A stretch of DNA of 64,000 bases from an uncultured Gemmatimonadales bacterium (GCA_963728915.1 CAVSLV010000002.1:33457-97456), one strand, 5' to 3'. Shown: positions 1 through 22,693, counted from the first letter of the stretch. Numbers and translations are program-made. Notes: generated by a model from the sequence alone, not told the origin.

Positions 1-2383
1 CCTGCTGGCCGCCCAGCAACAGCGCGCCGACGAGCAGCAAGCCGTGCTGGAGACGCTCGCGGACCTCTCGGGAGAGCTGGAGCTGGGCAAACTGCTCCAG
101 GCGGTGCTGCGCCGCGCCACCACGCTCCTGGGAGTGAGCGGAGGCGAGCTCGCGATTTTCGACGAAGCGGGGCAGGAGCTCGAGGTCGTGGCGAGCCAGC
201 AGATCGGGGTCGATTCGACCGGCACCCGTCTCAAGCTGGGCGAAGGGGCCATGGGACACGTCGCGCTGACCAAGGAGCCCATCTGCATCGACGAGTACCA
301 CGAATGGATCGGGCAGTCGAACAAGTACGCCTCGGTCGAGGTGCATTCGGTCATGGCGGCCCCGTTGCTCATCGGCCATCGCCTGGTCGGCGTCTTCGCC
401 TGCACCCACCACGATCCGGCCCGCCGATTCGGACCGGACGACATCCGGCTGCTCAATCTTTTCGCGCCCCAGGCGGCCGTCGCGATCGAGAACGCCGGTC
501 TCTACACCGCGGCGCAGCGCGAGAGGCTGTATTTCGAAGAGCTGGTGCGGAACAGTCCGGTCGCGGTGGTCACGCTCGACACCCAGCACAACATCGTCTC
601 CTGCAACCCGGCCTTCGAAACCCTCTATGGCTATGGCCAGGCCGAAGTCATCGGGCGGAACCTGGACGACCTGATCTCCACCGATACCAGCCGATCCGAG
701 GCGGTGGCAATCACCCAGCACGTGCTCAAGGAAGGTGCGGTGCGAAGCATCGGGCGGCGCCGGCGGCGGGACGGAACCCTGGTCGACGTCGAAGTCCTTG
801 GAGTACCGGTCCGGCTCGAGGGCCGGCTGGTCGGCCTCATGGGTCTCTATCACGACATCTCCGAGCTCACCCAGGCGCGGCGTACCGCGGAAGAAGCCAG
901 CAACGCCAAGAGTCAGTTCCTCGCCAGCATGAGCCACGAGCTCCGCACCCCGCTCAACGCCATCATCGGGTACAGCGAGATGCTGGAGGAAGAAGTCGTC
1001 GAGCTCGAGCACCCCGAGCTGGCTCCCGACCTCCAGAAGATCCGGAGCGCCGGCAAGCATCTGCTTGCCCTGATCAACGACATCCTCGATCTGTCGAAGA
1101 TCGAAGCCGGCAAGATCGAGCTCTATCTCGAGGATTTCGACGTCGCGGTAATGGTCCGGGACGTGGCGACCACGATCCAGCCCCTGCTGGCAAAGAACGC
1201 CAACGAATTGGTGCTGGAGGCCGACGGGCTCGGTACCATGCGCGGCGACCAGACCAAGATCCGGCAGATGCTCCTCAACCTGCTTTCCAACGCCTGCAAG
1301 TTCACCGATCAGGGCAAGGTCGGCCTCCAGGTGGAGCGACTCTCCACCACCGGTCACCCCGACCGGCTGCGGTTCCGGGTGCGCGATTCGGGCATCGGGA
1401 TGACCCCGGCGCAGCTAACCCGCATCTTCGAGGCCTTCGCCCAGGCGGACGCTTCCACCAGCCGCCGCTATGGCGGCACCGGACTCGGCCTCGCCATCAC
1501 CAAGCGCTTCGCGGAGCTCATGGGCGGCGACGTGACGGTCGAGAGCGAGCCGGGCAAGGGCTCGGTGTTCACCATCACGATCCCGGTCGAGCGGGTCCCG
1601 GAGCCGGAGGAGCCGGGACCCGTCGGGACGACGGCGGGCGTGGTCCTGGTGATCGATGACAACGCCGAGGCGCGCGACCTGGTCGGCCGGTTCCTCCGCG
1701 AGGAAGGCTTCGCGATCCTCGAGGCCGCAAGCGGCGAGAAGGGCCTCGAACTGGCGCGGAGCCGCCGGCCCGATGCCATCACCCTCGATGTCATGATGCC
1801 CGGCATGGATGGCTGGGCCGTCCTCACCGCGCTCAAGGCCGACCCCGACCTTGCCGGCATCCCGGTCATCATGCTCACCGTGCATGAGAACCGGAGCCTG
1901 GGGTTTTCGCTGGGAGCATCGGAATACCTGACCAAGCCCCTCGACCGCGGCCGGCTACGCCAGGTGCTCGAGCGGTATCGAACCGACGGCCGTCGCGACG
2001 TCCTGGTGGTGGAGGACGATCCGCCCACCCGTGACCTGCTGCGCCGGATCGTCGAGGCGGAAGGATGGACCGCCGCGACCGCGGAGAATGGACAGGTCGC
2101 CCTCGAGATGGTTCGCCGCCAGGCGCCATCCATCATCCTGCTGGATCTCATGATGCCGGTGATGGACGGCTGCCAGTTCGCGGCCGAGCTGCGAAAACAC
2201 GAGGAGTGGCGCGGCATCCCCGTGATCGTGCTGACCTCGAAAGACCTGACCGCCGACGATCGCCGGATGCTGAATGGAGACGTCCAGAGCTTCCTCCAGA
2301 AGGGGGCGTTGAGCCGCGACGAGCTGCTCCGCGAGATTCATGACCTCATGCGGCCCAGCCGGGCCGCGCCTGCCGGGGAGTAA
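1..2383 (+). CDS. Hybrid sensor histidine kinase (GAF-PAS-HisKA-HATPase_c-REC-REC); 5' end probably lies outside the window
   Basis: The frame is open from nt 2, and the GTG at 44 is only the first in-window start. H-box [19 protein letters not shown]-box [13 protein letters not shown]1 DSGIGM and G2 GGTGLGLAI are present. Two receiver domains are present (VLVIDDN...DVMMPGMDG...TKP and VLVVEDD...[10 protein letters not shown]). Confidence 0.9.
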
Positions 2384-2385
2384 CC

Positions 2386-2751
2386 ATGCCGAAGATCCTG
2401 CTGGTCGAGGACAATGAAATGAACCGCGATATGCTCTCCCGCCGGCTCCAGCGGAAAGGGTTCGAAGTGGAGATGGCGGTTGACGGCAAACAGGGCGTGG
2501 ACATGGCGCTCAACGGATCCTACGACTTGATCCTGATGGACATGAGCCTGCCCGAGATCGACGGCTGGGAGGCGACCCGCCGGGTCCGGGAGGCGCCGCA
2601 GACCCGAACCATCCCGATCATTGCGCTCACCGCGCACGCGATGTCCGGCGACCGCGAAAAAGCGATGGCGGCGGGCTGCAACGACTACGACACCAAGCCG
2701 GTGGAGCTCGAGCGACTCCTCGGCAAGATCGCCGCGTTGCTTCCCGCATGA
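2386..2751 (+). CDS. Single-domain response regulator (CheY-like receiver)
   Basis: KILLVEDNEMNRDML...LILMDMSLPEIDGWE...TAHAMSGD...YDTKP. Starts 3 nt after the kinase stop. Confidence 0.9.
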   Translation: MPKILLVEDNEMNRDMLSRRLQRKGFEVEMAVDGKQGVDMALNGSYDLILMDMSLPEIDGWEATRRVREAPQTRTIPIIALTAHAMSGDREKAMAAGCNDYDTKPVELERLLGKIAALLPA

Positions 2752-4670
2752 ACGGGCTGGACACCGCCGAAGCGGTCGCGGAGCTCCGCCACGAGCTTCG
2801 CACTCCTCTCAACCTGATCATCGGCTACTGCGAGATGCTCCTCGAGGACGCCACCGATTCCGGCGTCCAGCGGGGGCTCGAACAGGTGCTGACGGCGGGC
2901 CGCGACCTGCTGGAATGCATCAACGCCGCGGTGCCTCCGTCCCGCTCCGAAATCAACAGCACCGAGATCGCGGCACTCTACGACTCCCTGCGCGAACCCC
3001 AGGGACGGATCCTTACCGCCACGTCGGCGTTGCTTGCCCCGGCCGACGGCCCGCTCGACCAGCAGTTCGAGCGGGACGTGCGGCGGATCCGGAGCTCCGC
3101 CGAACGCCTCCTCACCATCGAGGTTTCCCAGCTCGCCGGCGCCGCCAAAGCGGTGCTGACCGCGGAACACCCGACCCGCGAGATGACTGCCCAGGGGGTG
3201 CCGGTCATCACCGCCCACCTTCTCGTGGTCGATGACGTCGAGGACAATCGCGCGGTCCTCGAGCGCAGGCTCCGGCGCCAGGGCCACACCGTGGAGGCGG
3301 TGAGCGGCGGCCATGCAGCGCTCGAGCGGCTGGGAAAGGAAAAGTTCGACTTGGTGCTGCTCGACGTCCTGATGCCCGACCTCGATGGCCTCGCGGTGCT
3401 CGAGCGCATGAAGGCCGATCCGGCCCTCCGCGACATTCCGGTGATCATGATCTCGGCGCTCGACGATGTCGCCAGCGTGGTCCGGTGTATCGAGCGGGGC
3501 GCGGAAGATCACCTCGCCAAGCCGTTCGATCCGGTGCTGCTCCGGGCTCGGATCAACGCCTGCCTCGAGAAGAAACAGCTCCGGGACGCCGAGCTCGAGT
3601 ACCTGGAACAGGTCGGCCGGGTCATCCAGGCCGCCACTGCGGTTGAAACCGGCAGCTACGAATCGGGAAGTCTCGGGGAAATCGCCCAGCGCGGGGATGA
3701 GCTCGGGCGCCTGGCGCGGGTGTTCGATGGGATGGCGGCACAGGTGCGGGCCCGGGAAAACCGGCTGCGCGACCAGGTCGAGGCACTCCGGCTGGAGATC
3801 GAAGAGGCCAAACACAAGACCCGCGCGACCACTCCGCGCGAAATGGCGAACCTCCCCTCGGGCGAGCTGTTCGCCGGGCGCTACGAAATCCTGGAAGAGG
3901 TTGGCCGTGGTGGCATGGGCGTGGTCTATCGGGCGCTCGATCGCGATCTCGGGGAACAGGTGGCCATCAAGACCCTGCGGCCCGAGCTGGTCCAGGATCC
4001 GGCCCAGATCGAGCGTTTCAAGGGAGAGATTCGCCTGACCCGTCACATTACCGACAAACACGTGGTTCGCACCCACGATTTCGGGGAGCGCGACGGGCTC
4101 TGTTATCTGACCATGGAATACGTCGAGGGGATTACCGTCCGCGAGCTGCTCGATACCCGCGGCAAGCTCGGCATCGCCCCCACCCTAGCGATTGCGACCC
4201 AGCTGGCGCAGTCGCTGGTCGCCGCCCACCAGCAGGGCGTCATCCATCGCGACATCAAGCCCCAGAATCTCCTGCTCGACAAGGAGGGCGGGCTCAAGGT
4301 GATGGACTTCGGCATCGCCCGGCTGTCCGGCGGATCGAACGGACTCACCGAAGTCGGCATGACGATCGGAACCCCGGATTACATGTCGCCGGAACAGATG
4401 CTGGGCGAGACCGTGACCGACCGCAGCGATCTGTATTCGGTGGGAGTCGTACTGTTCGAATGCCTGACCGGCCGATTGCCGTTCGTCGCCTCTTCGGCAA
4501 TGGCGCTGATCGCGAAATCGCTTCGCGAGCCTCCACCCGATCCAGCCGGATTGAATCCGGAGATCCCAACCCCGCTCTCTGCCCTGGTGCTTCGCTTACT
4601 GGCGAAAGGGGTAGAAGAGCGGCCCGGAGGCGCGGCCGAGCTCGAGCGTATGCTGTCGGAGCTGGCCTAG
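2748..4670 (+). CDS. Multidomain signalling protein: orphan HisKA/DHp-like H-box domain, receiver, HAMP-like linker and Ser/Thr protein kinase
   Basis: ATGA overlap with the upstream gene. The N-terminal H-box is [23 protein letters not shown], with no N/G1/G2 ATPase boxes after it. The REC domain is LLVVDDVEDNRAVL...LDVLMPDLDG...AKP. The HAMP-like motif is GDELGRLARVFDGMAAQV. Hanks kinase motifs are GRGGMGVVY, AIK, HRDIKPQN, DFG and GTPDYMSPE. Confidence 0.85.
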   Translation: MNGLDTAEAVAELRHELRTPLNLIIGYCEMLLEDATDSGVQRGLEQVLTAGRDLLECINAAVPPSRSEINSTEIAALYDSLREPQGRILTATSALLAPADGPLDQQFERDVRRIRSSAERLLTIEVSQLAGAAKAVLTAEHPTREMTAQGVPVITAHLLVVDDVEDNRAVLERRLRRQGHTVEAVSGGHAALERLGKEKFDLVLLDVLMPDLDGLAVLERMKADPALRDIPVIMISALDDVASVVRCIERGAEDHLAKPFDPVLLRARINACLEKKQLRDAELEYLEQVGRVIQAATAVETGSYESGSLGEIAQRGDELGRLARVFDGMAAQVRARENRLRDQVEALRLEIEEAKHKTRATTPREMANLPSGELFAGRYEILEEVGRGGMGVVYRALDRDLGEQVAIKTLRPELVQDPAQIERFKGEIRLTRHITDKHVVRTHDFGERDGLCYLTMEYVEGITVRELLDTRGKLGIAPTLAIATQLAQSLVAAHQQGVIHRDIKPQNLLLDKEGGLKVMDFGIARLSGGSNGLTEVGMTIGTPDYMSPEQMLGETVTDRSDLYSVGVVLFECLTGRLPFVASSAMALIAKSLREPPPDPAGLNPEIPTPLSALVLRLLAKGVEERPGGAAELERMLSELA

Positions 4671-4671
4671 A

Positions 4672-5940
4672 TCAGGATTTGGTTCGGAATCTTCCGACCG
4701 ATTCGGTGAGCCGGAGCGCCGATCCGGCAAGGTGCTGTGCCGAGGCGGTCACTTCTTCGGTGGACGCGTTGACCGCTTCGGTGCCTGCCGCGATTTCTCT
4801 GGCCGCCCTGGTAAACTCCTCCGTGACGGTGGCGAGCGTGCGGGTCCGGCCCGCGATTCCATCGACCAGCCGCCGGACTTCCTCTGCCGCCTGCGAGATC
4901 CGCCGGCTCCATTGATCGGCCGCCTCGGCCTCTGAGGCCACCGCCTGAAGTCCATCGATCGCCGAGCGGGCCGCATCCCGGGCCATGAGTCCGCCCTCGC
5001 CGAGCCGGAGCAGCCGCTCCCGTGCCAGCTGTACCCTGGCAGAGATGTTCTGGACCGTTTCGGATGTCGAGGTGGCCGCAAGCGCCGCCTGGCCCGAGAG
5101 CTTCCGGACCTCGTCGGCCACGGTGCCAAACCCGTTCCCTTCGTGACCACCTCGCGCGGCTTCGATCGAAGCATTGAGGGCGAGGATCCGGGTCTGCCGA
5201 GCCACGGTCCTGCCCTGATCGACGAATCGCTCCAGCGCATCGGAGGCCTCGGCCAGCGCCTCCGCTTCGGTGGTGCCGAGTCGCACCTCCTCGGCGAGTT
5301 GATCGAGCGCCTTCACGCTGGCGTTGAGTCGCTCCCCGTGGCCGCGAGCGAGCTGCAACAGCGCCGCGTTCCGGTCCACCGCCCGCAGGGCGCCTTCCGC
5401 CACCGATTCGGCGATGGCCAGGATCTGGCTGGCGTCATCCGCGACCGCGCGCACCACGGAGGCCTGTCCCAGCGCCTTCTCGGTGAGCGCCGAGGTCGTG
5501 CTCGCGACATCCTGGGTCGAGGAAACCATCTGTTCGGTCGCCGCTGAGATTTCCTCGGCGAGCGCGGCGGAATCGGTGGCGGATTGACGGATGGCGCTCA
5601 CCAACCCGTTCAGCTCCCGCACCATCCGGTCCATCCCCTGGGTGACCGGGCCCCCGCCGACCCGCTCGAGCTGACCCGGCTCGATGGTCAGATCGAAGTC
5701 CGCGATCCTGAGCGTAATGATTCCCACCGCCCGGAGGGGCTCGATGATGCGCCGGTTGAGCCAGGAGAGGCAGACCCAGAGACTGAGCAGGCAGAGAAGG
5801 GCAAAAACACCCAGCATCGCCAGGGTGGACCAGGGGAGGTCGCCGGAGAGAAAGACCCACACGACGGCCGTCAGGCCGATGGTGATGACTGCACCGCCAA
5901 CCTGCATCGTCCGGCGGAGGTGTTTCCCCGTCTCGGTCAT
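4672..5940 (-). CDS. Methyl-accepting chemotaxis protein-like transducer (2 TM, HAMP, MCP signalling domain)
   Basis: Two N-terminal hydrophobic segments. Conserved MCP tip motif RILALNASIEAARGGHEGNGFGTVADEVRKLS. Confidence 0.85.
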   Translation of the reverse strand: MTETGKHLRRTMQVGGAVITIGLTAVVWVFLSGDLPWSTLAMLGVFALLCLLSLWVCLSWLNRRIIEPLRAVGIITLRIADFDLTIEPGQLERVGGGPVTQGMDRMVRELNGLVSAIRQSATDSAALAEEISAATEQMVSSTQDVASTTSALTEKALGQASVVRAVADDASQILAIAESVAEGALRAVDRNAALLQLARGHGERLNASVKALDQLAEEVRLGTTEAEALAEASDALERFVDQGRTVARQTRILALNASIEAARGGHEGNGFGTVADEVRKLSGQAALAATSTSETVQNISARVQLARERLLRLGEGGLMARDAARSAIDGLQAVASEAEAADQWSRRISQAAEEVRRLVDGIAGRTRTLATVTEEFTRAAREIAAGTEAVNASTEEVTASAQHLAGSALRLTESVGRFRTKS

Positions 5941-18521: not shown

Positions 18522-20384
18522 ATGACACCGACCGACGGGGCGGAATTGTTCCGAGGCCAGGCAGATGGCTCCGCCCGCGTGGTCCCCGATTCTCCCCCCC
18601 TGCCCCCCGAGGAGTCGGAGAGCCTCGATGTCTGGGGTTTTCGCGGCGCCGGCTTCGAGCTGCTCCAGAACGGCAGCGTGATCCTCCGGGGCGACCGATA
18701 CGCCGGAAGCGGTGTCGAGCTGCCCGACCTGCTGCCGTGGGTCAAGAGGATCCTCGGGTGCGACATCCAGCCCGGCGACATTCATCGATCGCAATACCCT
18801 CCCGAGATTCCCGAGCCGCGCCTCCCTCCCGTTCTGCTCCGGGAGATCGGTGAGATTCTTCCCGAATCCGCCATCTCGACCGATCCCGAGCAAAGGCTCC
18901 GCCGGGGTCACGGGCATACCCTGGAAGAGATGTGGGCGATCAAGTACGGGAGAATCGAGCGGGTGCCCGACGTGGTGGTGTTCCCCGAAACCGACCAGCA
19001 GGTGAGCGCGCTGGTGCAGGCGGCGCTGCGTCATGACGCGTGCCTGGTTCCCTACGGCGGCGGCACCAACGTGACCGATGCCTTGCGCTGCCCCCCGGAC
19101 GAAGATCGCACCATCCTCGCGGTGGACCTGGCGCGGATGAACCGGATTCGCTGGATCGATCCGGTCAACCGCATGGCGTGCATCGAGGCCGGCGCGGTGG
19201 GCCGCCATATCCAGACCGGTTTGGCCGCGATGGGATTCACCCTCGGGCACGAGCCCGACAGCGTCGAGTTCTCGACTCTGGGCGGCTGGATCGCCACCTA
19301 CGCCAGCGGGATGAAGAAGAATCGCTACGGCAACATCGAGGACCTGGTGCTCGACGTGGAGGTGGTCACCCCGCTTGGCGAGCTCCGCCACGCGCCGTTT
19401 CCCCGGGAGTCGGCCGGGCTCGACCCGCGGCGCTGGATCTTCGGCTCGGAGGGCTCGCTCGGGATCGTCACCAGCGCGGTGGTCAAGATCTTTCCCCTGC
19501 CCGAGGTGCAGCGCTACGACGCGCTGCTCTTTCCCGACTTCGAAACCGGGGTGCGTTTTCTCTATGACCTGACCCGCGAAGCCGTCCCCCCCGCGAGCGT
19601 TCGGCTGGTCGACAACCTGCAGTTCCAGCTGAGTCAGACGCTCAAGCCCAGAGCGGAAGGTGCCGGGGCCCTGAAACGCAAGATCGAGAAATTCCTGGTG
19701 ACCCGCCTCAAGGGATTCGAGCCGGAGAGCATGGTCGCGTGCACCCTGGTGTACGAGGGAACCAGTCGCGAGGTCGCTTCGCAGGAAGGGTCGGTCGCGA
19801 GTCTGATGCGGCGTCACCGGGGCATGCGGGCCGGCGCCGAGAACGGGCGCCGGGGCTATCAGCTCACCTTCGGCATCGCCTATCTCCGCGACTTCGTGAT
19901 GCGGCACTGGGTCCTGGGCGAGTCGTTCGAGACGGCGGTCCCGTGGAGCCGGGTACTCTCACTCTGCGACAACGTGAAGCAGCGACTCCATGCCGAGTGC
20001 GCCGCGCGTGGAGTTCCTGGACGGCCATTCGTCACCGCGCGGGTGACTCAGCTCTACCAGACCGGGGTCTGTGTGTATTTCTATTTCGGGTTCTACCACA
20101 AAGGCCTGGCCGATCCGCTGGCCACCTACCTGGATCTCGAACGGGCCGGGCGCGAAGAAATTCTCTCTTCGGGAGGCTCGATCTCCCATCATCACGGCGT
20201 TGGCAAGATCCGACGGGGATTTCTGACCAGGATATTCTCGCCGGCGGTGCTCGAATGGAGCGGCGAGATCAAGCGGGCCGTCGATCCCAACAATGTGTTC
20301 GGAATCGGCAACCTCACCGGGGGTCAGGCCGGGGTCAGAGCAGGGTCAGACCCCGGCCTGACCCCGCTCCAGGTGAAGGCATGA
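18522..20384 (+). CDS. Alkyl-dihydroxyacetonephosphate synthase (AGPS-like FAD-linked oxidase)
   Basis: The AGPS-type N-terminus is WGF..AGF...G.V.L.G.RY...G..LP.LLPW. An FAD_binding_4 core is present. The HHH loop SISHHHGVGKIR is characteristic of AGPS. Confidence 0.85.
   Translation: MTPTDGAELFRGQADGSARVVPDSPPLPPEESESLDVWGFRGAGFELLQNGSVILRGDRYAGSGVELPDLLPWVKRILGCDIQPGDIHRSQYPPEIPEPRLPPVLLREIGEILPESAISTDPEQRLRRGHGHTLEEMWAIKYGRIERVPDVVVFPETDQQVSALVQAALRHDACLVPYGGGTNVTDALRCPPDEDRTILAVDLARMNRIRWIDPVNRMACIEAGAVGRHIQTGLAAMGFTLGHEPDSVEFSTLGGWIATYASGMKKNRYGNIEDLVLDVEVVTPLGELRHAPFPRESAGLDPRRWIFGSEGSLGIVTSAVVKIFPLPEVQRYDALLFPDFETGVRFLYDLTREAVPPASVRLVDNLQFQLSQTLKPRAEGAGALKRKIEKFLVTRLKGFEPESMVACTLVYEGTSREVASQEGSVASLMRRHRGMRAGAENGRRGYQLTFGIAYLRDFVMRHWVLGESFETAVPWSRVLSLCDNVKQRLHAECAARGVPGRPFVTARVTQLYQTGVCVYFYFGFYHKGLADPLATYLDLERAGREEILSSGGSISHHHGVGKIRRGFLTRIFSPAVLEWSGEIKRAVDPNNVFGIGNLTGGQAGVRAGSDPGLTPLQVKA
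20320..20365 (+). promoter_or_regulatory. Perfect 17-bp stem hairpin inside the last codons of the AGPS gene, 15 nt before the next start codon
   Basis: GGGGTCAGGCCGGGGTC (20320-20336) pairs with GACCCCGGCCTGACCCC (20349-20365) across a 12-nt loop. It contains three tandem GGGTCAG units. Confidence 0.7.
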
Positions 20385-22693
20385 GCGCCCCGCGCGAGTT
20401 TTTACTCACCGGGGTCACCGGATTCCTGGGCAAGGTCGTCCTGGAAGAGCTGGTGCGCCGGCGCGAAGAGCTGGGCGTCGAGCGAGTCCACGTCATCATC
20501 CGCCCTCGCAAGGGCCTGACGCCGGAAGAGCGGTTCACGCAGGAAGTCGCCGCTTCCGGGTGTTTTGCCGGGCTCCCACCCGGCTGGGCCGATGCCATCT
20601 CGATCGTCGAGGGTACCCTCGAGAAACCCTGTCTCGGCATCTCCCCGGAAGCGCGGGAGAGACTGGGCACCCGGGTAACCCACATCCTGCACGCTGCCGC
20701 CTCGGTGAGCTTCGACCTTCCCCTCAATGAAGCCGCCCGGTCCAACGTGGATACCACCGTGCACCTGCTGGAGCTGGCCCGCGCCTGTCGCCGGCTGCAA
20801 CGTCTGGTGTACGTCTCAACCGCGTACGTCACCCCGCATCCCGGCAACGGAACACCCATCCCCGAGGCACTCGCCCCGCTCCCCTGGGCGCCCGAAGAGC
20901 TGTATCGCATGATCCAGCAGGGCGACGCGGACGAGAAGGCGTTGCTCAAGGAATCGCGGCACCCCAATACCTACACTCTCACCAAGTGCCTCGCCGAGCA
21001 TCTGCTGGTGGCCCGCCGTGGGGAGGTCCCTCTCTCCATCGTGCGTCCCAGCATCATCTCGGCGAGCTGGAAACATCCCTTTCCGGGGTGGATCGACAGC
21101 ATGGCGGGGTTCGGCGGCTTCGTCGTGTTGATCGGGTTAGGCCACCTGCGGGTCGTGGCCGCGAACCCGTCGGCCCGGATTGACGTGGTCCCCGTGGATA
21201 TGGTGGCCAACCGGATGCTCGACGAATGTGAGCATCCCTCGACCGAACCCGCGCCGGTCATTCGTCACGCGGTGTCCGGGCTGGCCAGCACCCCGCGGGT
21301 GCTCGACTGCTGGGACCGAATCCAGGAGTTTTTCCTGGTCCATCGGGTGGACCGGCGGCCGGTGATCCGGTACGTCGGGCCTCGGGGAGTCCGGTTCGCC
21401 ATCGCCGAGAGCCTGCACCATCGTTTGGCGGTCCGGCTCGCCGGGATCCGCTCGGCCGCTCTGCGTCGCTCCGGGGCCCAGTTGCTCTCCCGGCTCATCT
21501 ATCTGAACCGGGCGTTCCCCTACTTCACCTCGAATTCGTTCGACTTCCGGAGCAGCCACGCCCCGGAGCCGGGGTTCGAGCCGGGCGAATACGTCACCAC
21601 CGTGTGCCGCGGCATCTACCGCCACATGCTCGACCGGGACGAGACCGAGTGGACCCTGGCCGGACGCAAGCAGCGCGGGTTAGGCGAGAGCGACTTCCAC
21701 TGGGCCTTTACCCAGCCGGCCGGGAACCTCTGGATCCGGACCGCCGCCTGGATCACCACCAAGATGCTCCGCCGCGCGGCCGAGCGGATCACCGTGGACA
21801 TCCCGTCCTTCCAGGCGGCCCGCCGCGCCGCGGCTGCCGGGGAGCCCATCGCCCTGGTGCCCAACCACCGGAGCTATCTGGATTTCGTCCTCTGCTCCTA
21901 TCTGTGTTTCGCCCGCCCCGATCTCGGGATCGGGATTCCCTACATCGCGGCGGCGATCGAGTTCGGCCGGATTCCGTTCCTCGGCAGGATCCTGACCTGG
22001 CTCCATGCGTTCTATGTCCGCCGGGGAACCGGTCCTGATCCTGACCTGACCCGCCGGGTCCATGACCTGGTGAGCCAGGGCAAGACCCTCGAGTTCTTCG
22101 TGGAGGGACAGCGGAGTCGTTCCCGCGAGTTCCTCCCGCCCAAGCGGGGCCTCCTCCGTGTGCTTCAGGCCACGGGACAGCCGTTCACTCTGCTGCCGGT
22201 GGCGTTCACCTACGACCGGGTTCCCGAAGAGCAAAGCTTCGCGAAGGAGCTGGCTGGAGCGCCCAAGCCGAAGATGCGGCTCGGTGGACTGCTTCGCTGG
22301 ACATGGCGGGCCTGGCGCGGCAAGGTGCACCTGGGCCGGATCCACATCGCGTGTGGCACGCCGGTCCGACTCCAACAGAGCAGCGACGTCCAGATGGTCG
22401 CCGACGAAGTCATTCAACGACTCGAGGAGGCGACCGTCGCGACCACCTATCACCTGGAAGCGTTTCTGGCCCGGTATGCCCTCGACGGTCTCGACTCCCA
22501 TGCCCTCAAGCGGGAGATCGAGCTGCGGGGTGGTCGGGTGCTGGAGAGTCCGCTTCGCCCCGAGACCGGCCTCGATGCCAGGATCGCGCACAGCTTCCGC
22601 TACCAGTTCCAGCACTATTTCCGCACTGGAAACGACGAAGTTCCCTTCGACCGGATTCTTTCCGACATTCGAGAGCGCGAGCCGGTCGGGTGA
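20381..22693 (+). CDS. Bifunctional fatty acyl-CoA/ACP reductase (FAR) plus DHAP/glycerol-phosphate acyltransferase (GNPAT/PlsB-like) fusion
   Basis: ATGA overlap with the AGPS gene. The N-terminal half has LLTGVTGFLGKVVLEEL and NTYTLTKCLAEH, the male-sterility/FAR NAD-binding domain. The C-terminal half has VPNHRSYLDFVLCSY (H-x4-D) and FFVEGQRSRSREFLPPKRGLL. Confidence 0.85.
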   Translation: MSAPREFLLTGVTGFLGKVVLEELVRRREELGVERVHVIIRPRKGLTPEERFTQEVAASGCFAGLPPGWADAISIVEGTLEKPCLGISPEARERLGTRVTHILHAAASVSFDLPLNEAARSNVDTTVHLLELARACRRLQRLVYVSTAYVTPHPGNGTPIPEALAPLPWAPEELYRMIQQGDADEKALLKESRHPNTYTLTKCLAEHLLVARRGEVPLSIVRPSIISASWKHPFPGWIDSMAGFGGFVVLIGLGHLRVVAANPSARIDVVPVDMVANRMLDECEHPSTEPAPVIRHAVSGLASTPRVLDCWDRIQEFFLVHRVDRRPVIRYVGPRGVRFAIAESLHHRLAVRLAGIRSAALRRSGAQLLSRLIYLNRAFPYFTSNSFDFRSSHAPEPGFEPGEYVTTVCRGIYRHMLDRDETEWTLAGRKQRGLGESDFHWAFTQPAGNLWIRTAAWITTKMLRRAAERITVDIPSFQAARRAAAAGEPIALVPNHRSYLDFVLCSYLCFARPDLGIGIPYIAAAIEFGRIPFLGRILTWLHAFYVRRGTGPDPDLTRRVHDLVSQGKTLEFFVEGQRSRSREFLPPKRGLLRVLQATGQPFTLLPVAFTYDRVPEEQSFAKELAGAPKPKMRLGGLLRWTWRAWRGKVHLGRIHIACGTPVRLQQSSDVQMVADEVIQRLEEATVATTYHLEAFLARYALDGLDSHALKREIELRGGRVLESPLRPETGLDARIAHSFRYQFQHYFRTGNDEVPFDRILSDIREREPVG

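What the first reader, a model, noticed from the sequence alone, without database searches (positions are those of the whole stretch)
1..4670. Three-gene phosphorelay ending in a DHp-REC-HAMP-like-Ser/Thr kinase fusion
A hybrid kinase (GAF-PAS-HisKA-HATPase-REC-REC), a stand-alone receiver and a third protein are tightly linked (3-nt gap, then an ATGA overlap). The third protein begins with a bona fide H-box helix ([16 protein letters not shown]) but has no ATP-binding boxes. It continues into its own receiver domain, a HAMP-like segment (GDELGRLARVFDGMAAQV) with a coiled coil, and a complete Hanks-type kinase. An ATPase-less DHp domain is how Spo0B- and ChpT-type histidine phosphotransferases look. 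The simplest reading is a His-Asp-His-Asp relay whose final receiver gates a Ser/Thr kinase, joining two-component and eukaryote-like kinase signalling in one polypeptide.
Basis: partly seen in the sequence, partly recalled or inferred. Interest (0 to 1): 0.58.

Follow-up and report, generated by a model that had tools for sequence, protein, structure and literature searches.

The report
Phosphorelay ending in receiver-gated Ser/Thr kinase
A Gemmatimonadota operon encodes sensor histidine kinase(s), a lone receiver and a protein that joins an ATPase-less, duplicated histidine-phosphotransfer bundle to a receiver and a eukaryote-like Ser/Thr kinase; this probably wires two-component signalling directly into Ser/Thr phosphorylation, and it belongs to a widespread cassette that nobody has characterised.

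Summary
ORF1 is GAF-PAS-HisKA-HATPase-REC-REC but is cut by the window start. ORF2 is a 121-aa receiver. ORF3 (640 aa) is HisKA, then REC, a sub-threshold HAMP, and a Hanks kinase with all catalytic residues.

New findings:
- ORF3 residues 1-125 are two tandem DHp hairpins. The first carries invariant His15. The second is degenerate (Asp79 in the His position).
- AlphaFold2 models them as one compact single-chain four-helix bundle (pLDDT 91.6, pTM 0.84). This is not the Spo0B/ChpT layout.
- Relatives keep both histidines. In some assemblies the tandem module is called as a separate ~170-aa gene.
- The gene pair [ORF2-like REC][DHp2-REC-output] is conserved in 27 fetched loci across phyla. Outputs are swapped: Ser/Thr kinase, class III cyclase, histidine kinase.
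- The three His-less variants have lost the upstream REC and kinases.

Best reading (about 0.45): His15 shuttles phosphoryl groups between the ORF2 receiver (and/or ORF1's receivers) and Asp206, which gates the kinase through the HAMP/coiled coil.

Caveat: the same cassette also exists without any second His domain. Direction, and a phosphatase role, therefore remain open. Nothing has been tested biochemically.

Verdict: a new variant of a known kind.

The parts
2..2383 (+). ORF1: hybrid sensor histidine kinase, 5'-truncated by the window edge. Domains: GAF (nt ~83-487), PAS (~533-859), HisKA with His298 (~905-1111; His codon 935-937), HATPase_c (~1244-1591), REC1 (~1643-1969), REC2 (~2006-2353).
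   Evidence: Both receivers keep the acidic pocket, the Asp, the Thr and the Lys across orthologues.
2386..2751 (+). ORF2: stand-alone receiver (121 aa). The predicted phospho-acceptor is Asp52 (nt 2539-2541).
   Evidence: Pfam Response_reg 3.9e-27. Orthologues scoring 120-234 bits lie directly upstream of the ORF3 homologue in 27 loci. The best partial NCBIfam hits are receiver domains of the hybrid kinases BarA and HrmK.
2748..4670 (+). ORF3: a 640-aa fusion of DHp, degenerate DHp', REC, a HAMP-like segment with coiled coil, and a Hanks Ser/Thr kinase. Its start overlaps the ORF2 stop (ATGA).
2766..2930 (+). ORF3 DHp hairpin 1 (residues 7-61), with H box [16 protein letters not shown]. His15 is at nt 2790-2792.
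   Evidence: HisKA 2.6e-12. The H box is 100% invariant in 24 orthologues at 68-82% overall identity. It is 38% identical to ORF1's own DHp.
2958..3116 (+). ORF3 DHp hairpin 2 (residues 71-123). It is degenerate, with Asp79 in the position of the His.
   Evidence: BLAST against the ORF1 DHp gives E 0.063. hhalign of hairpin 1 against hairpin 2 gives E 0.01 over 52 columns in register. HisKA is the only Pfam hit, at E 0.009 and below cut-off. ORF3 residues 10-124 align colinearly with the bona fide tandem HisKA protein P0304 at E 3e-18.
3117..3215 (+). Flexible linker (residues ~124-156).
   Evidence: AF2 pLDDT 27-31. The region is variable and rich in indels in the alignment.
3216..3554 (+). 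ORF3 receiver domain (residues 157-269). Asp206 is at nt 3363-3365. Also present: Asp162/163, Ser236 and Lys258.
   Evidence: Pfam 1.1e-27. All these residues are invariant.
3555..3821 (+). Signalling helix continuing from receiver helix alpha5 (ACLEKKQLRD), followed by a HAMP-like helix-connector-helix (GDELGRLARVFDGMAAQV) and a coiled coil. Covers residues 270-358.
   Evidence: The HAMP hit is sub-threshold at 19.5 bits. AF2 places helices at 262-301 and 318-358. PF00672 is precomputed for some homologues. The helix after the receiver is conserved in the cyclase-output relatives.
3882..4664 (+). Hanks-type Ser/Thr kinase domain (residues 379-639). Motifs: GxGGMGxV, Lys408, Glu427, HRD Asp502, DFG Asp520, GTPxYMxPE.
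   Evidence: Pkinase 4.9e-48. The catalytic residues are invariant. Foldseek's best match is M. tuberculosis PknB at 36% identity, TM up to 0.87.

Best explanation
This is a multi-step His-Asp phosphorelay whose terminal response regulator is a Ser/Thr kinase. GAF/PAS sensor kinases (ORF1, and probably paralogues to the left of the window) autophosphorylate on His. The phosphoryl group reaches a receiver Asp: ORF2 Asp52, and/or ORF1's own C-terminal receivers. It is then passed to His15 of ORF3. His15 sits on a CA-less, sensor-less DHp that has been duplicated in tandem, so that one chain forms the whole four-helix bundle (a 'single-chain DHp dimer' with one active face). From His15 it goes to Asp206 of ORF3's own receiver, which is tethered by a ~30-residue flexible linker. 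Phosphorylation of Asp206 is transmitted through the continuous alpha5 signalling helix, the HAMP-like segment and the coiled coil of a dimer. This repositions the two RD-type kinase domains for activation-loop autophosphorylation and substrate phosphorylation. Shown: the domains, their conserved residues, the predicted bundle, the gene linkage and its co-variation with the His. Inferred: every phosphotransfer step, its direction, dimerisation and kinase gating. Substrates are unknown.
For: Domain content and invariant catalytic residues: His15, Asp206, Lys258, Lys408, Asp502, Asp520.

The 16-residue H box is 100% conserved, against a mean column identity of 81%.

There is no HATPase domain and no input domain N-terminal to the DHp, since His15 is 14 residues from the start. 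This fits a passive transfer site.

AF2 models residues 1-130 as four helices with pLDDT 91.6 and pTM 0.84. All Foldseek neighbours are single-chain up-down four-helix bundles, including a single-chain ROP.

Hairpin 2 is homologous to a second bona fide HisKA in relatives that keep both histidines: P0304/P0306, P0310, P0338, P0346, P0349, P0353.

In L086 the module is called as a separate gene between a lone REC and a REC-cyclase, downstream of an HATPase-REC-REC kinase.

An ORF2-like REC lies directly upstream, usually with a 4-nt overlap, in 27 His-bearing loci from Gemmatimonadota, Rokubacteria, Methylomirabilota and Verrucomicrobiia, whatever the output is.

The His-less variants (Y, Q, A) and the forms without the N-terminus have neither an upstream REC nor kinases.

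No cassette-linked member has lost the His while keeping the ExxT phosphatase motif.

In L016, L017, L020, L021 and L023 the kinase adjacent to the lone REC is not a hybrid. That gives the classical HK -> REC -> His -> REC layout.

ORF2's best partial matches are receiver domains of hybrid kinases, which are intermediaries (criteria discussed in PMC9981736).
Against: There are no biochemical data.

Cassettes with the same kinase, an ORF2-like REC and the same REC-output type exist with no DHp2 or HPt in the operon: L067, L071-L075, L081, L082. The core can therefore work without a second His, and the lone REC need not be an intermediate.

ORF3's DHp alpha1 is nearly identical to ORF1's. The kinases could therefore phosphorylate Asp206 directly, and the direction of flow through His15 is undetermined.

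The role of ORF1's two intact receivers is unexplained.

The AF2 bundle is a monomer prediction from a shallow alignment (17 sequences at 65-77% identity). A domain-swapped dimer is not excluded.

Foldseek E-values are all above 0.001, and no HPt or DHp chain is in the top 50.

The HAMP hit is sub-threshold.

Some 'stand-alone' tandem DHp gene calls are frameshift artefacts of long-read contigs (L091).
Confidence: 0.45

Rival explanations
1. The DHp2 module is a built-in phosphatase or reverse shuttle. The sensor kinases phosphorylate ORF3 Asp206 (and ORF2) directly. The His15 bundle then drains Asp206~P, either by HisKA-type (H-E-x-x-T) phosphatase chemistry or by passing the phosphate back to ORF2 as a sink. 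This sharpens or terminates kinase activation.
For: DHp2-less cassettes show that kinase -> REC-output signalling can occur without a second His. His15 is followed by E16...T19, the HisKA phosphatase motif (read directly from the sequence; that this motif confers phosphatase activity is established knowledge, not tested here). DHp2 alpha1 is almost the same as the kinase's DHp alpha1, so both should dock the same receivers. The isolated EnvZ DHp is known to retain phosphatase activity (recalled from the literature, not checked here).
Against: His is usually dispensable for the phosphatase reaction, yet it is never lost in cassette-linked members. The lone REC is always placed immediately upstream of the DHp2 gene and is translationally coupled to it. 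Non-hybrid kinases sit next to the lone REC in five loci, which fits forward relay.
Confidence: 0.27
2. The bundle is a DivL-like docking sensor. The DHp2 bundle binds phosphorylated ORF2 without transferring phosphate. That binding allosterically sets the state of the REC-HAMP-kinase, so ORF2~P is an input alongside Asp206.
For: DivK is among ORF2's closest solved relatives (1m5t, E 1e-22). DivL is a precedent for a DHp used as a receiver sensor (PMC4211667, listed; not read in detail). His-less bundles persist in orphan paralogues, so the bundle also has a structural role.
Against: Docking alone would not need an invariant His and full H box; DivL itself has Tyr. The His-less forms are exactly the ones that lack the lone REC.
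Confidence: 0.1
3. The system is a split kinase. ORF1's ATPase domain phosphorylates ORF3 His15 in trans, through a DHp-DHp heteromer as in GacS/RetS. This makes ORF3 a kinase-less 'half' that then phosphorylates its own receiver.
For: The best PDB sequence matches to the ORF3 N-terminus are the GacS/RetS DHp structures (7n0e, 6dk7; E 2e-5). The H boxes of ORF1 and ORF3 are near-identical.
Against: The tandem hairpins are predicted to close into their own bundle, which leaves no free face for a heterodimer. This reading gives the universally linked lone REC no role.
Confidence: 0.06
4. The N-terminal HisKA is a decaying remnant of a former histidine kinase and has no function. ORF3 is simply a receiver-regulated kinase.
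For: Forms without the N-terminus (P0123, P0124, P0134, L022, L025) and His-less forms exist.
Against: The H box is the most conserved stretch of the protein. The module is conserved across phyla with different outputs and is strictly linked to the upstream REC.
Confidence: 0.03

Closest known systems
Spo0F-Spo0B-Spo0A sporulation phosphorelay (Bacillus) and CckA-ChpT-CtrA (Caulobacter)
   Same: A histidine-kinase-derived helical-hairpin (DHp) domain with a phosphorylatable His and no ATP-binding activity sits, in gene order and in logic, between a lone or intermediate receiver and a terminal receiver. Several sensor kinases feed one relay.
   Different: Spo0B and ChpT are homodimers that keep a C-terminal pseudo-ATPase (CA-like) domain (recalled from the literature). 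Here there is no CA-like domain. The bundle is predicted to be made by two tandem hairpins of one chain, with only one His. The transfer domain is fused to the terminal regulator. There is no sequence match to Spo0B or ChpT families.
Monomeric HPt domains (ArcB-HPt, Ypd1, ShpA; Pfam PF01627)
   Same: A single-chain four-helix bundle carrying one solvent-exposed His. These domains are used downstream of hybrid kinases of the BarA/ArcB/TorS type, which ORF1 resembles.
   Different: There is no Hpt Pfam hit and no HPt chain among the top 50 Foldseek neighbours. The sequence is clearly HisKA-derived, so this is convergence on a similar solution, not membership.
Receiver-regulated enzymes with a coiled-coil or HAMP link (PleD/WspR REC-GGDEF; HAMP-regulated class III cyclases such as Rv3645)
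   Same: A terminal receiver whose alpha5 continues into a dimeric signalling helix that controls a dimer-dependent catalytic domain. ORF3's receiver best matches the PleD receiver. Sister proteins carry a class III cyclase or a PP2C phosphatase in place of the kinase.
   Different: The output here is a Hanks-type Ser/Thr kinase of the PknB type. No REC-gated Hanks kinase was found described in the literature searches.
Dual His/Ser-Thr signalling proteins and cross-talk (Anabaena HstK-type STK-HK fusions; Myxococcus EspA/EspC with PktA5/PktB8; PrkC-WalR)
   Same: They connect two-component and Hanks-kinase signalling.
   Different: In those systems the Ser/Thr kinase acts on, or sits upstream of, two-component proteins (recalled; PMC4478028 appeared). 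Here the two-component relay would sit upstream and control the kinase within one polypeptide.
DivL-DivK and the phosphotransferases PhyT/LovK with the lone receivers MrrA/SdrG
   Same: A kinase-like DHp protein that interacts with a single-domain receiver, rather than autophosphorylating in response to a signal (PMC5964349 and PMC5898713, listed).
   Different: Those proteins keep a CA or pseudo-CA domain and belong to the HisKA_2/HWE group or have Tyr in place of His. ORF2 lacks the FATGUY motif discussed for MrrA/SdrG (its sequence reads ALTAHAMSGD; criteria).

Membership tests
HisKA / DHp domain (Pfam PF00512) | Profile match above the gathering score | tested here: met
   Hairpin 1 scores 47 bits against a cut-off of 26.9, E 2.6e-12. 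Hairpin 2 scores only 16.5 bits, below cut-off.
HisKA / DHp domain (Pfam PF00512) | Conserved phospho-acceptor His in an H-E-x-x-T/N-P box | tested here: met
   His15 in HELRTP is invariant in 24 orthologues and in all 27 cassette-linked loci.
HisKA / DHp domain (Pfam PF00512) | Antiparallel helical hairpin forming a four-helix bundle | tested here: met
   In the AF2 model, helices 7-34/38-61 and 71-96/105-121 pack as one unit, pTM 0.84. This is a prediction only. Whether the bundle is intra- or inter-chain is not settled.
Complete histidine kinase (HisKA + HATPase_c) | ATP-binding catalytic domain with N, G1, F and G2 boxes | tested here: not met
   ORF3 has no HATPase_c, HATPase_c_2 or HATPase_c_3 hit at E <= 0.1. 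Residues 60-156 are hairpin 2 plus a disordered linker.
Spo0B/ChpT-type phosphotransferase | DHp-like hairpin with His, positioned between two receivers | tested here: met
   Gene order is REC | DHp2 | REC-output, fused or called as separate genes.
Spo0B/ChpT-type phosphotransferase | C-terminal CA-like alpha/beta domain, and a bundle formed by a homodimer | tested here: not met
   There is no CA-like domain. The bundle is predicted to form from tandem hairpins of one chain.
Spo0B/ChpT-type phosphotransferase | Reversible phosphotransfer Asp -> His -> Asp | not testable with these tools
   Needs in vitro 32P transfer assays.
HPt domain (PF01627) | Profile match, and a fold match to HPt four-helix bundles | tested here: not met
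   No Hpt hit. No HPt chain appears in the top 50 Foldseek matches and all E-values are above 0.001.
Receiver domain (PF00072), phosphorylatable | Acidic pair, phospho-acceptor Asp, Ser/Thr and Lys | tested here: met
   ORF3 has D162/D163, D206, S236 and K258, all invariant. ORF2 has E8/D9, D52, T82 and K104, read from the sequence. ORF1's REC1 and REC2 are both intact across orthologues.
Hanks-type (eukaryote-like) Ser/Thr kinase | Gly-rich loop, VAIK Lys, helix C Glu, HRD, DFG and APE motifs; kinase fold | tested here: met
   Pkinase 4.9e-48. G386-G391, K408, E427, H500-R501-D502, D520-F521-G522 and P548-E549 are invariant. The fold matches PknB with TM up to 0.87.
HAMP domain (PF00672) | Profile match above the gathering score; helix-connector-helix | tested here: inconclusive
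   19.5 bits against a cut-off of 25. PF00672 is on record for a minority of homologues. AF2 gives helix, loop, helix at 286-301, 302-317 and 318-335.

The most novel reading that the evidence does not exclude
The tandem ('single-chain') DHp is a third structural class of histidine phosphotransfer module, beside monomeric HPt and the dimeric Spo0B/ChpT type. Together with a dedicated lone receiver, it forms a widespread plug-in relay cassette. That cassette couples GAF/PAS sensor kinases to interchangeable dimeric outputs: a Hanks Ser/Thr kinase in Gemmatimonadota, and class III cyclase or histidine kinase elsewhere. In this window it would be the first case of a Hanks kinase switched directly by aspartyl phosphorylation within one polypeptide.
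Probability: 0.4. Interest if true: 0.72.

Novelty: new variant of a known kind. Interest (0 to 1): 0.6.

Why it matters
Bacterial His-Asp and Ser/Thr phosphorylation networks are usually treated as separate systems that cross-talk only occasionally. A receiver-gated Hanks kinase, fed by a relay encoded in the same operon, would be a hard-wired junction between them. It would also be a simple model for how aspartyl phosphorylation can switch a eukaryote-like kinase.

The tandem DHp bundle would show a new way to build a histidine phosphotransfer protein, by covalently linking the two halves of a kinase dimerisation domain and letting one half decay.

Because the cassette recurs with kinase, cyclase and histidine-kinase outputs across several poorly studied phyla, one biochemical characterisation would annotate a family that already spans at least 220 protein clusters at 90% identity in the searches here. 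These proteins are currently named only 'protein kinase', 'CheY-like' or 'histidine kinase'.

Tried and rejected
1. Fold search of the full-length model returned only PknB-type kinases and said nothing about the N-terminus. I re-modelled residues 1-130 alone.

2. Foldseek of the N-terminal model gave only generic four-helix bundles, with no E-value at or below 0.001. It supports 'single-chain bundle' but cannot show kinship with HPt or DHp.

3. Each test for the internal duplication is weak on its own: BLAST E 0.063, hhalign E 0.01 with probability 4%, Pfam E 0.009. The claim rests mainly on the colinear alignment to proteins with two bona fide HisKA domains.

4. Pairwise identities among the four receivers are 27-36% and do not identify cognate partners. 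I did not attempt covariation analysis because there are too few independent lineages.

5. NCBIfam has no model reaching its cut-off for any of the three proteins or for the tandem DHp.

6. Literature searches for REC-Hanks kinase fusions and for tandem HisKA/DHp found nothing relevant. Galperin's response-regulator census (PMC1482966) is not held. My recollection that protein-kinase outputs are listed there is therefore unverified.

7. I first took the small HisKA-only proteins on long contigs as stand-alone phosphotransferases. Reading the DNA showed that at least L091 is a frameshift artefact and that L089 and L090 are doubtful. Only L086 and the P0306 context are kept as probably separate genes.

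8. I looked for kinase partners (FHA, PP2C) in the window downstream of leuS and found none.

9. Taxon names for the tandem-DHp proteins could not be obtained.

Full report
**1. The observation**

Three co-directional ORFs occupy 1-4670. ORF1 is listed from 44, but its frame is open back to base 2, so the gene is cut by the window edge.

Pfam gives:
- ORF1: GAF, PAS, HisKA, HATPase_c and two receivers.
- ORF2 (2386-2751, 121 aa): one receiver.
- ORF3 (2748-4670, 640 aa): HisKA at residues 8-59 (E 2.6e-12, above threshold), a receiver at 159-269, a sub-threshold HAMP at 290-334 (19.5 bits against a cut-off of 25) and a protein kinase domain at 379-627 (E 4.9e-48). There is no ATPase domain.

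The ORF2/ORF3 ATGA overlap is real. The ORF1/ORF2 gap is 2 nt, not 3.

**2. Whose genome, and how conserved**

ORF3 has more than 120 homologue clusters at 68-100% identity, all about 640 aa. They come from Gemmatimonadota/Gemmatimonadales metagenome bins and are named only 'protein kinase' or 'CheY-like'.

In an alignment of 24 of them:
- The H box E12-Y27 ([16 protein letters not shown]) is 100% invariant, against a mean column identity of 81%.
- The receiver quintet is invariant: D162/D163, D206, S236, K258.
- Every Hanks catalytic motif is invariant: K408, E427, HRD-D502, DFG-D520, PE.

The kinase models onto M. tuberculosis PknB at 36% identity, TM up to 0.87. No NCBIfam model reaches its cut-off for any of the three proteins.

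**3. What the N-terminus really is**

Residues 60-158 are not a plain linker. Residues 67-124 repeat the DHp hairpin pattern, LYDSLREPQGRILTATSALL ... QFERDVRRIRSSAERLL.

Three weak tests agree on the same register:
- BLAST against ORF1's DHp, E 0.063.
- Profile-profile alignment of the two halves, E 0.01 over 52 columns.
- HisKA as the sole Pfam hit, E 0.009, below cut-off.

The decisive evidence is a colinear alignment. ORF3 residues 10-124 align to small proteins that carry two bona fide HisKA domains (P0304, E 3e-18; P0310, E 9e-19). In these alignments ORF3 Asp79 falls on their second His (Pfam finds two HisKA stretches in them).

AlphaFold2 models residues 1-130 as four helices (7-34, 38-61, 71-96, 105-121) with pLDDT 91.6 and pTM 0.84. 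Its Foldseek neighbours are all single-chain up-down four-helix bundles, among them an engineered single-chain ROP. No E-value is at or below 0.001, and no HPt or DHp chain is among them.

The module is therefore best described as a tandem, pseudo-dimeric DHp: one chain supplies both halves of the bundle and only the first half keeps the His. This differs from Spo0B and ChpT, which (from the literature) are homodimers with a pseudo-ATPase domain. I found no solved structure with tandem HisKA and no paper on it.

**4. The cassette**

Contigs encoding orthologues show one to three tandem GAF-PAS kinases, then a 123-126-aa receiver, then the ORF3 homologue, often next to leuS as in the window.

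A scan of species-representative genomes and my own ORF and phmmer tabulation of all fetched loci give the following:
- Every gene that has a His-bearing N-terminal DHp, this receiver type and enough upstream DNA has an ORF2-like receiver gene directly upstream, usually overlapping by 4 nt. That is 27 loci plus the window.
- In Gemmatimonadota (19 of the 27 loci) the output is the Ser/Thr kinase.
- In Rokubacteria, Methylomirabilota and Verrucomicrobiia (7 loci) the same DHp-DHp'-REC-signalling helix is joined to a class III cyclase (L047).
- In L077 the output is a HisKA-HATPase.
- The conserved helix after the receiver (ACLEKKRLRD) is shared by the kinase and cyclase forms. Only the kinase forms add the HAMP-like piece. 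That piece also occurs in a membrane-anchored paralogue without a receiver (P0145).
- A search with the two-His protein P0304 found about 120 further clusters of tandem DHp, alone or followed by a receiver.
- In L086 the gene calls read HATPase-REC-REC | REC | tandem HisKA (169 aa) | REC-cyclase.
- Some 'stand-alone' calls on long-read contigs are frameshift artefacts (L091). I rely only on L086 and the P0306 context for separate genes.

**5. Does the His matter?**

At the level of 50% identity representatives, the His is kept in P0121, P0122, P0125, P0128 and P0132. It is replaced by Gln in the P0129 cluster, by Ala in P0141 and by Tyr in L024.

All three His-less forms are orphans. They have no receiver or kinase upstream. 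The forms that lack the N-terminus altogether (L022, L025) likewise lack an ORF2-like receiver.

Among cassette-linked members none has lost the His. The losses represent perhaps only two independent events, so the association is suggestive rather than statistical. It is nonetheless what a phosphotransfer link between His15 and the ORF2 receiver predicts.

**6. Mechanism**

The best-supported reading has four steps.
1. Sensor kinase His passes phosphate to a receiver Asp.
2. That Asp passes it to His15.
3. His15 passes it to Asp206.
4. Asp206 acts through the alpha5 helix, the HAMP-like segment and the coiled coil (AF2 helices 262-301 and 318-358) on an RD-type kinase that probably needs dimer-dependent activation-loop phosphorylation.

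The first Asp is most simply ORF2 Asp52:
- The gene order places it there.
- In L016, L017, L020, L021 and L023 the adjacent kinase is not a hybrid.
- ORF2's best partial matches are receiver domains of hybrid kinases.

ORF1's two receivers are intact in all orthologues and could equally feed His15.

**7. What weakens it**

- Cassettes with the same kinase type, an ORF2-like receiver and the same receiver-output type exist without any second His domain: L067, L071-L075, L081 and L082, with cyclase or PP2C(+HATPase_c_2) outputs. The DHp2 module is thus an add-on to a core that can work without it.
- Its alpha1 is almost identical to that of the kinase's own DHp.

Direct kinase-to-Asp206 transfer therefore remains plausible, with DHp2 acting as a phosphatase or as a reverse shuttle to ORF2. 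I give this rival 0.27. A DivL-like docking role (DivK is among ORF2's closest solved relatives) and a split-kinase model (best PDB sequence hits are GacS/RetS DHp) are less likely.

None of the phosphotransfer steps, the oligomeric state or kinase gating has been tested. The AF2 bundle rests on a shallow alignment.

**8. Comparison and novelty**

Functionally the system resembles the Spo0F-Spo0B-Spo0A and CckA-ChpT-CtrA relays. It is not a structural member of the Spo0B/ChpT family or of the HPt family (see the membership tests).

The terminal part resembles PleD-like receiver-coiled-coil-enzyme regulators, but with a Hanks kinase as the enzyme. I found no description of either the tandem DHp or a receiver-gated Hanks kinase in the held literature. 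Domain censuses may list REC-kinase fusions, but I could not check this.

I class the finding as a new variant of a known kind, of moderate to good interest (0.6).

**9. Surroundings**

Downstream, a 422-aa MCP-signal protein converges on ORF3 with one base between the two stop codons. It is followed by leuS and unrelated genes. There is no FHA or PP2C partner nearby, so the kinase's substrates are unknown.

Noticed in passing
window 4672-5940 (- strand): A 422-aa protein with two N-terminal hydrophobic helices and an MCP signalling domain (PF00015, 1.1e-18) converges on ORF3 with a single base between the two stop codons. MCP-signal genes also lie near the cassette in L001 (16474-17736) and L004 (7-1650). 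No cheA or cheW is nearby.
   Followed up: partly
window 1-43 and the loci L001, L005, L007-L013: ORF1 runs off the left edge of the window. Orthologous loci carry two or three tandem paralogous GAF-PAS kinases with 4-nt overlaps, so the operon probably extends beyond the window and integrates several sensors.
   Followed up: partly
L047 2719-9957: A 2,412-aa Rokubacteria histidine kinase made of about eleven near-identical GAF repeats separated by a conserved coiled-coil linker (…[44 protein letters not shown]…). It heads the cyclase version of the cassette, where REC-REC is a separate 250-aa gene.
   Followed up: no
L075 11882-13540; L067 12218-13390: DHp2-less versions of the cassette end in REC-PP2C (SpoIIE), in L075 with an extra RsbW-like HATPase_c_2 domain. 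This looks like a receiver-controlled partner-switching module.
   Followed up: partly
L013 and L020 (ORF3 orthologues): The position equivalent to Asp79 in hairpin 2 is His in two Gemmatimonadota orthologues (ALRHALREPQG, GLYHSLEVPQ). Elsewhere it is D, E, N, T, A, R, S or G. This could be a retained or regained second acceptor.
   Followed up: no
L089, L090, L091 (ENA long-read contigs): Gene calls around the tandem DHp are broken by frameshifts. In L091 a stop immediately precedes beta1 of the receiver after a G run. 'Stand-alone' small HisKA proteins from such assemblies should not be trusted without reading the DNA.
   Followed up: yes
L021 9099-9692: The ORF2-like receiver upstream of the ORF3 orthologue is interrupted after residue 81 by a frameshift. 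It is either a pseudogene or an assembly error.
   Followed up: no
window 19739-22693 (+): A 984-aa ORF combines a fatty-acyl reductase-type NAD_binding_4 domain (3.4e-63) with an acyltransferase domain (6e-19). This is an unusual fusion unrelated to the finding.
   Followed up: no
P0145: A paralogue has a multi-pass membrane N-terminus joined directly to the same HAMP-like segment and kinase, with no DHp or receiver. This suggests the HAMP-kinase unit is a portable output module.
   Followed up: no
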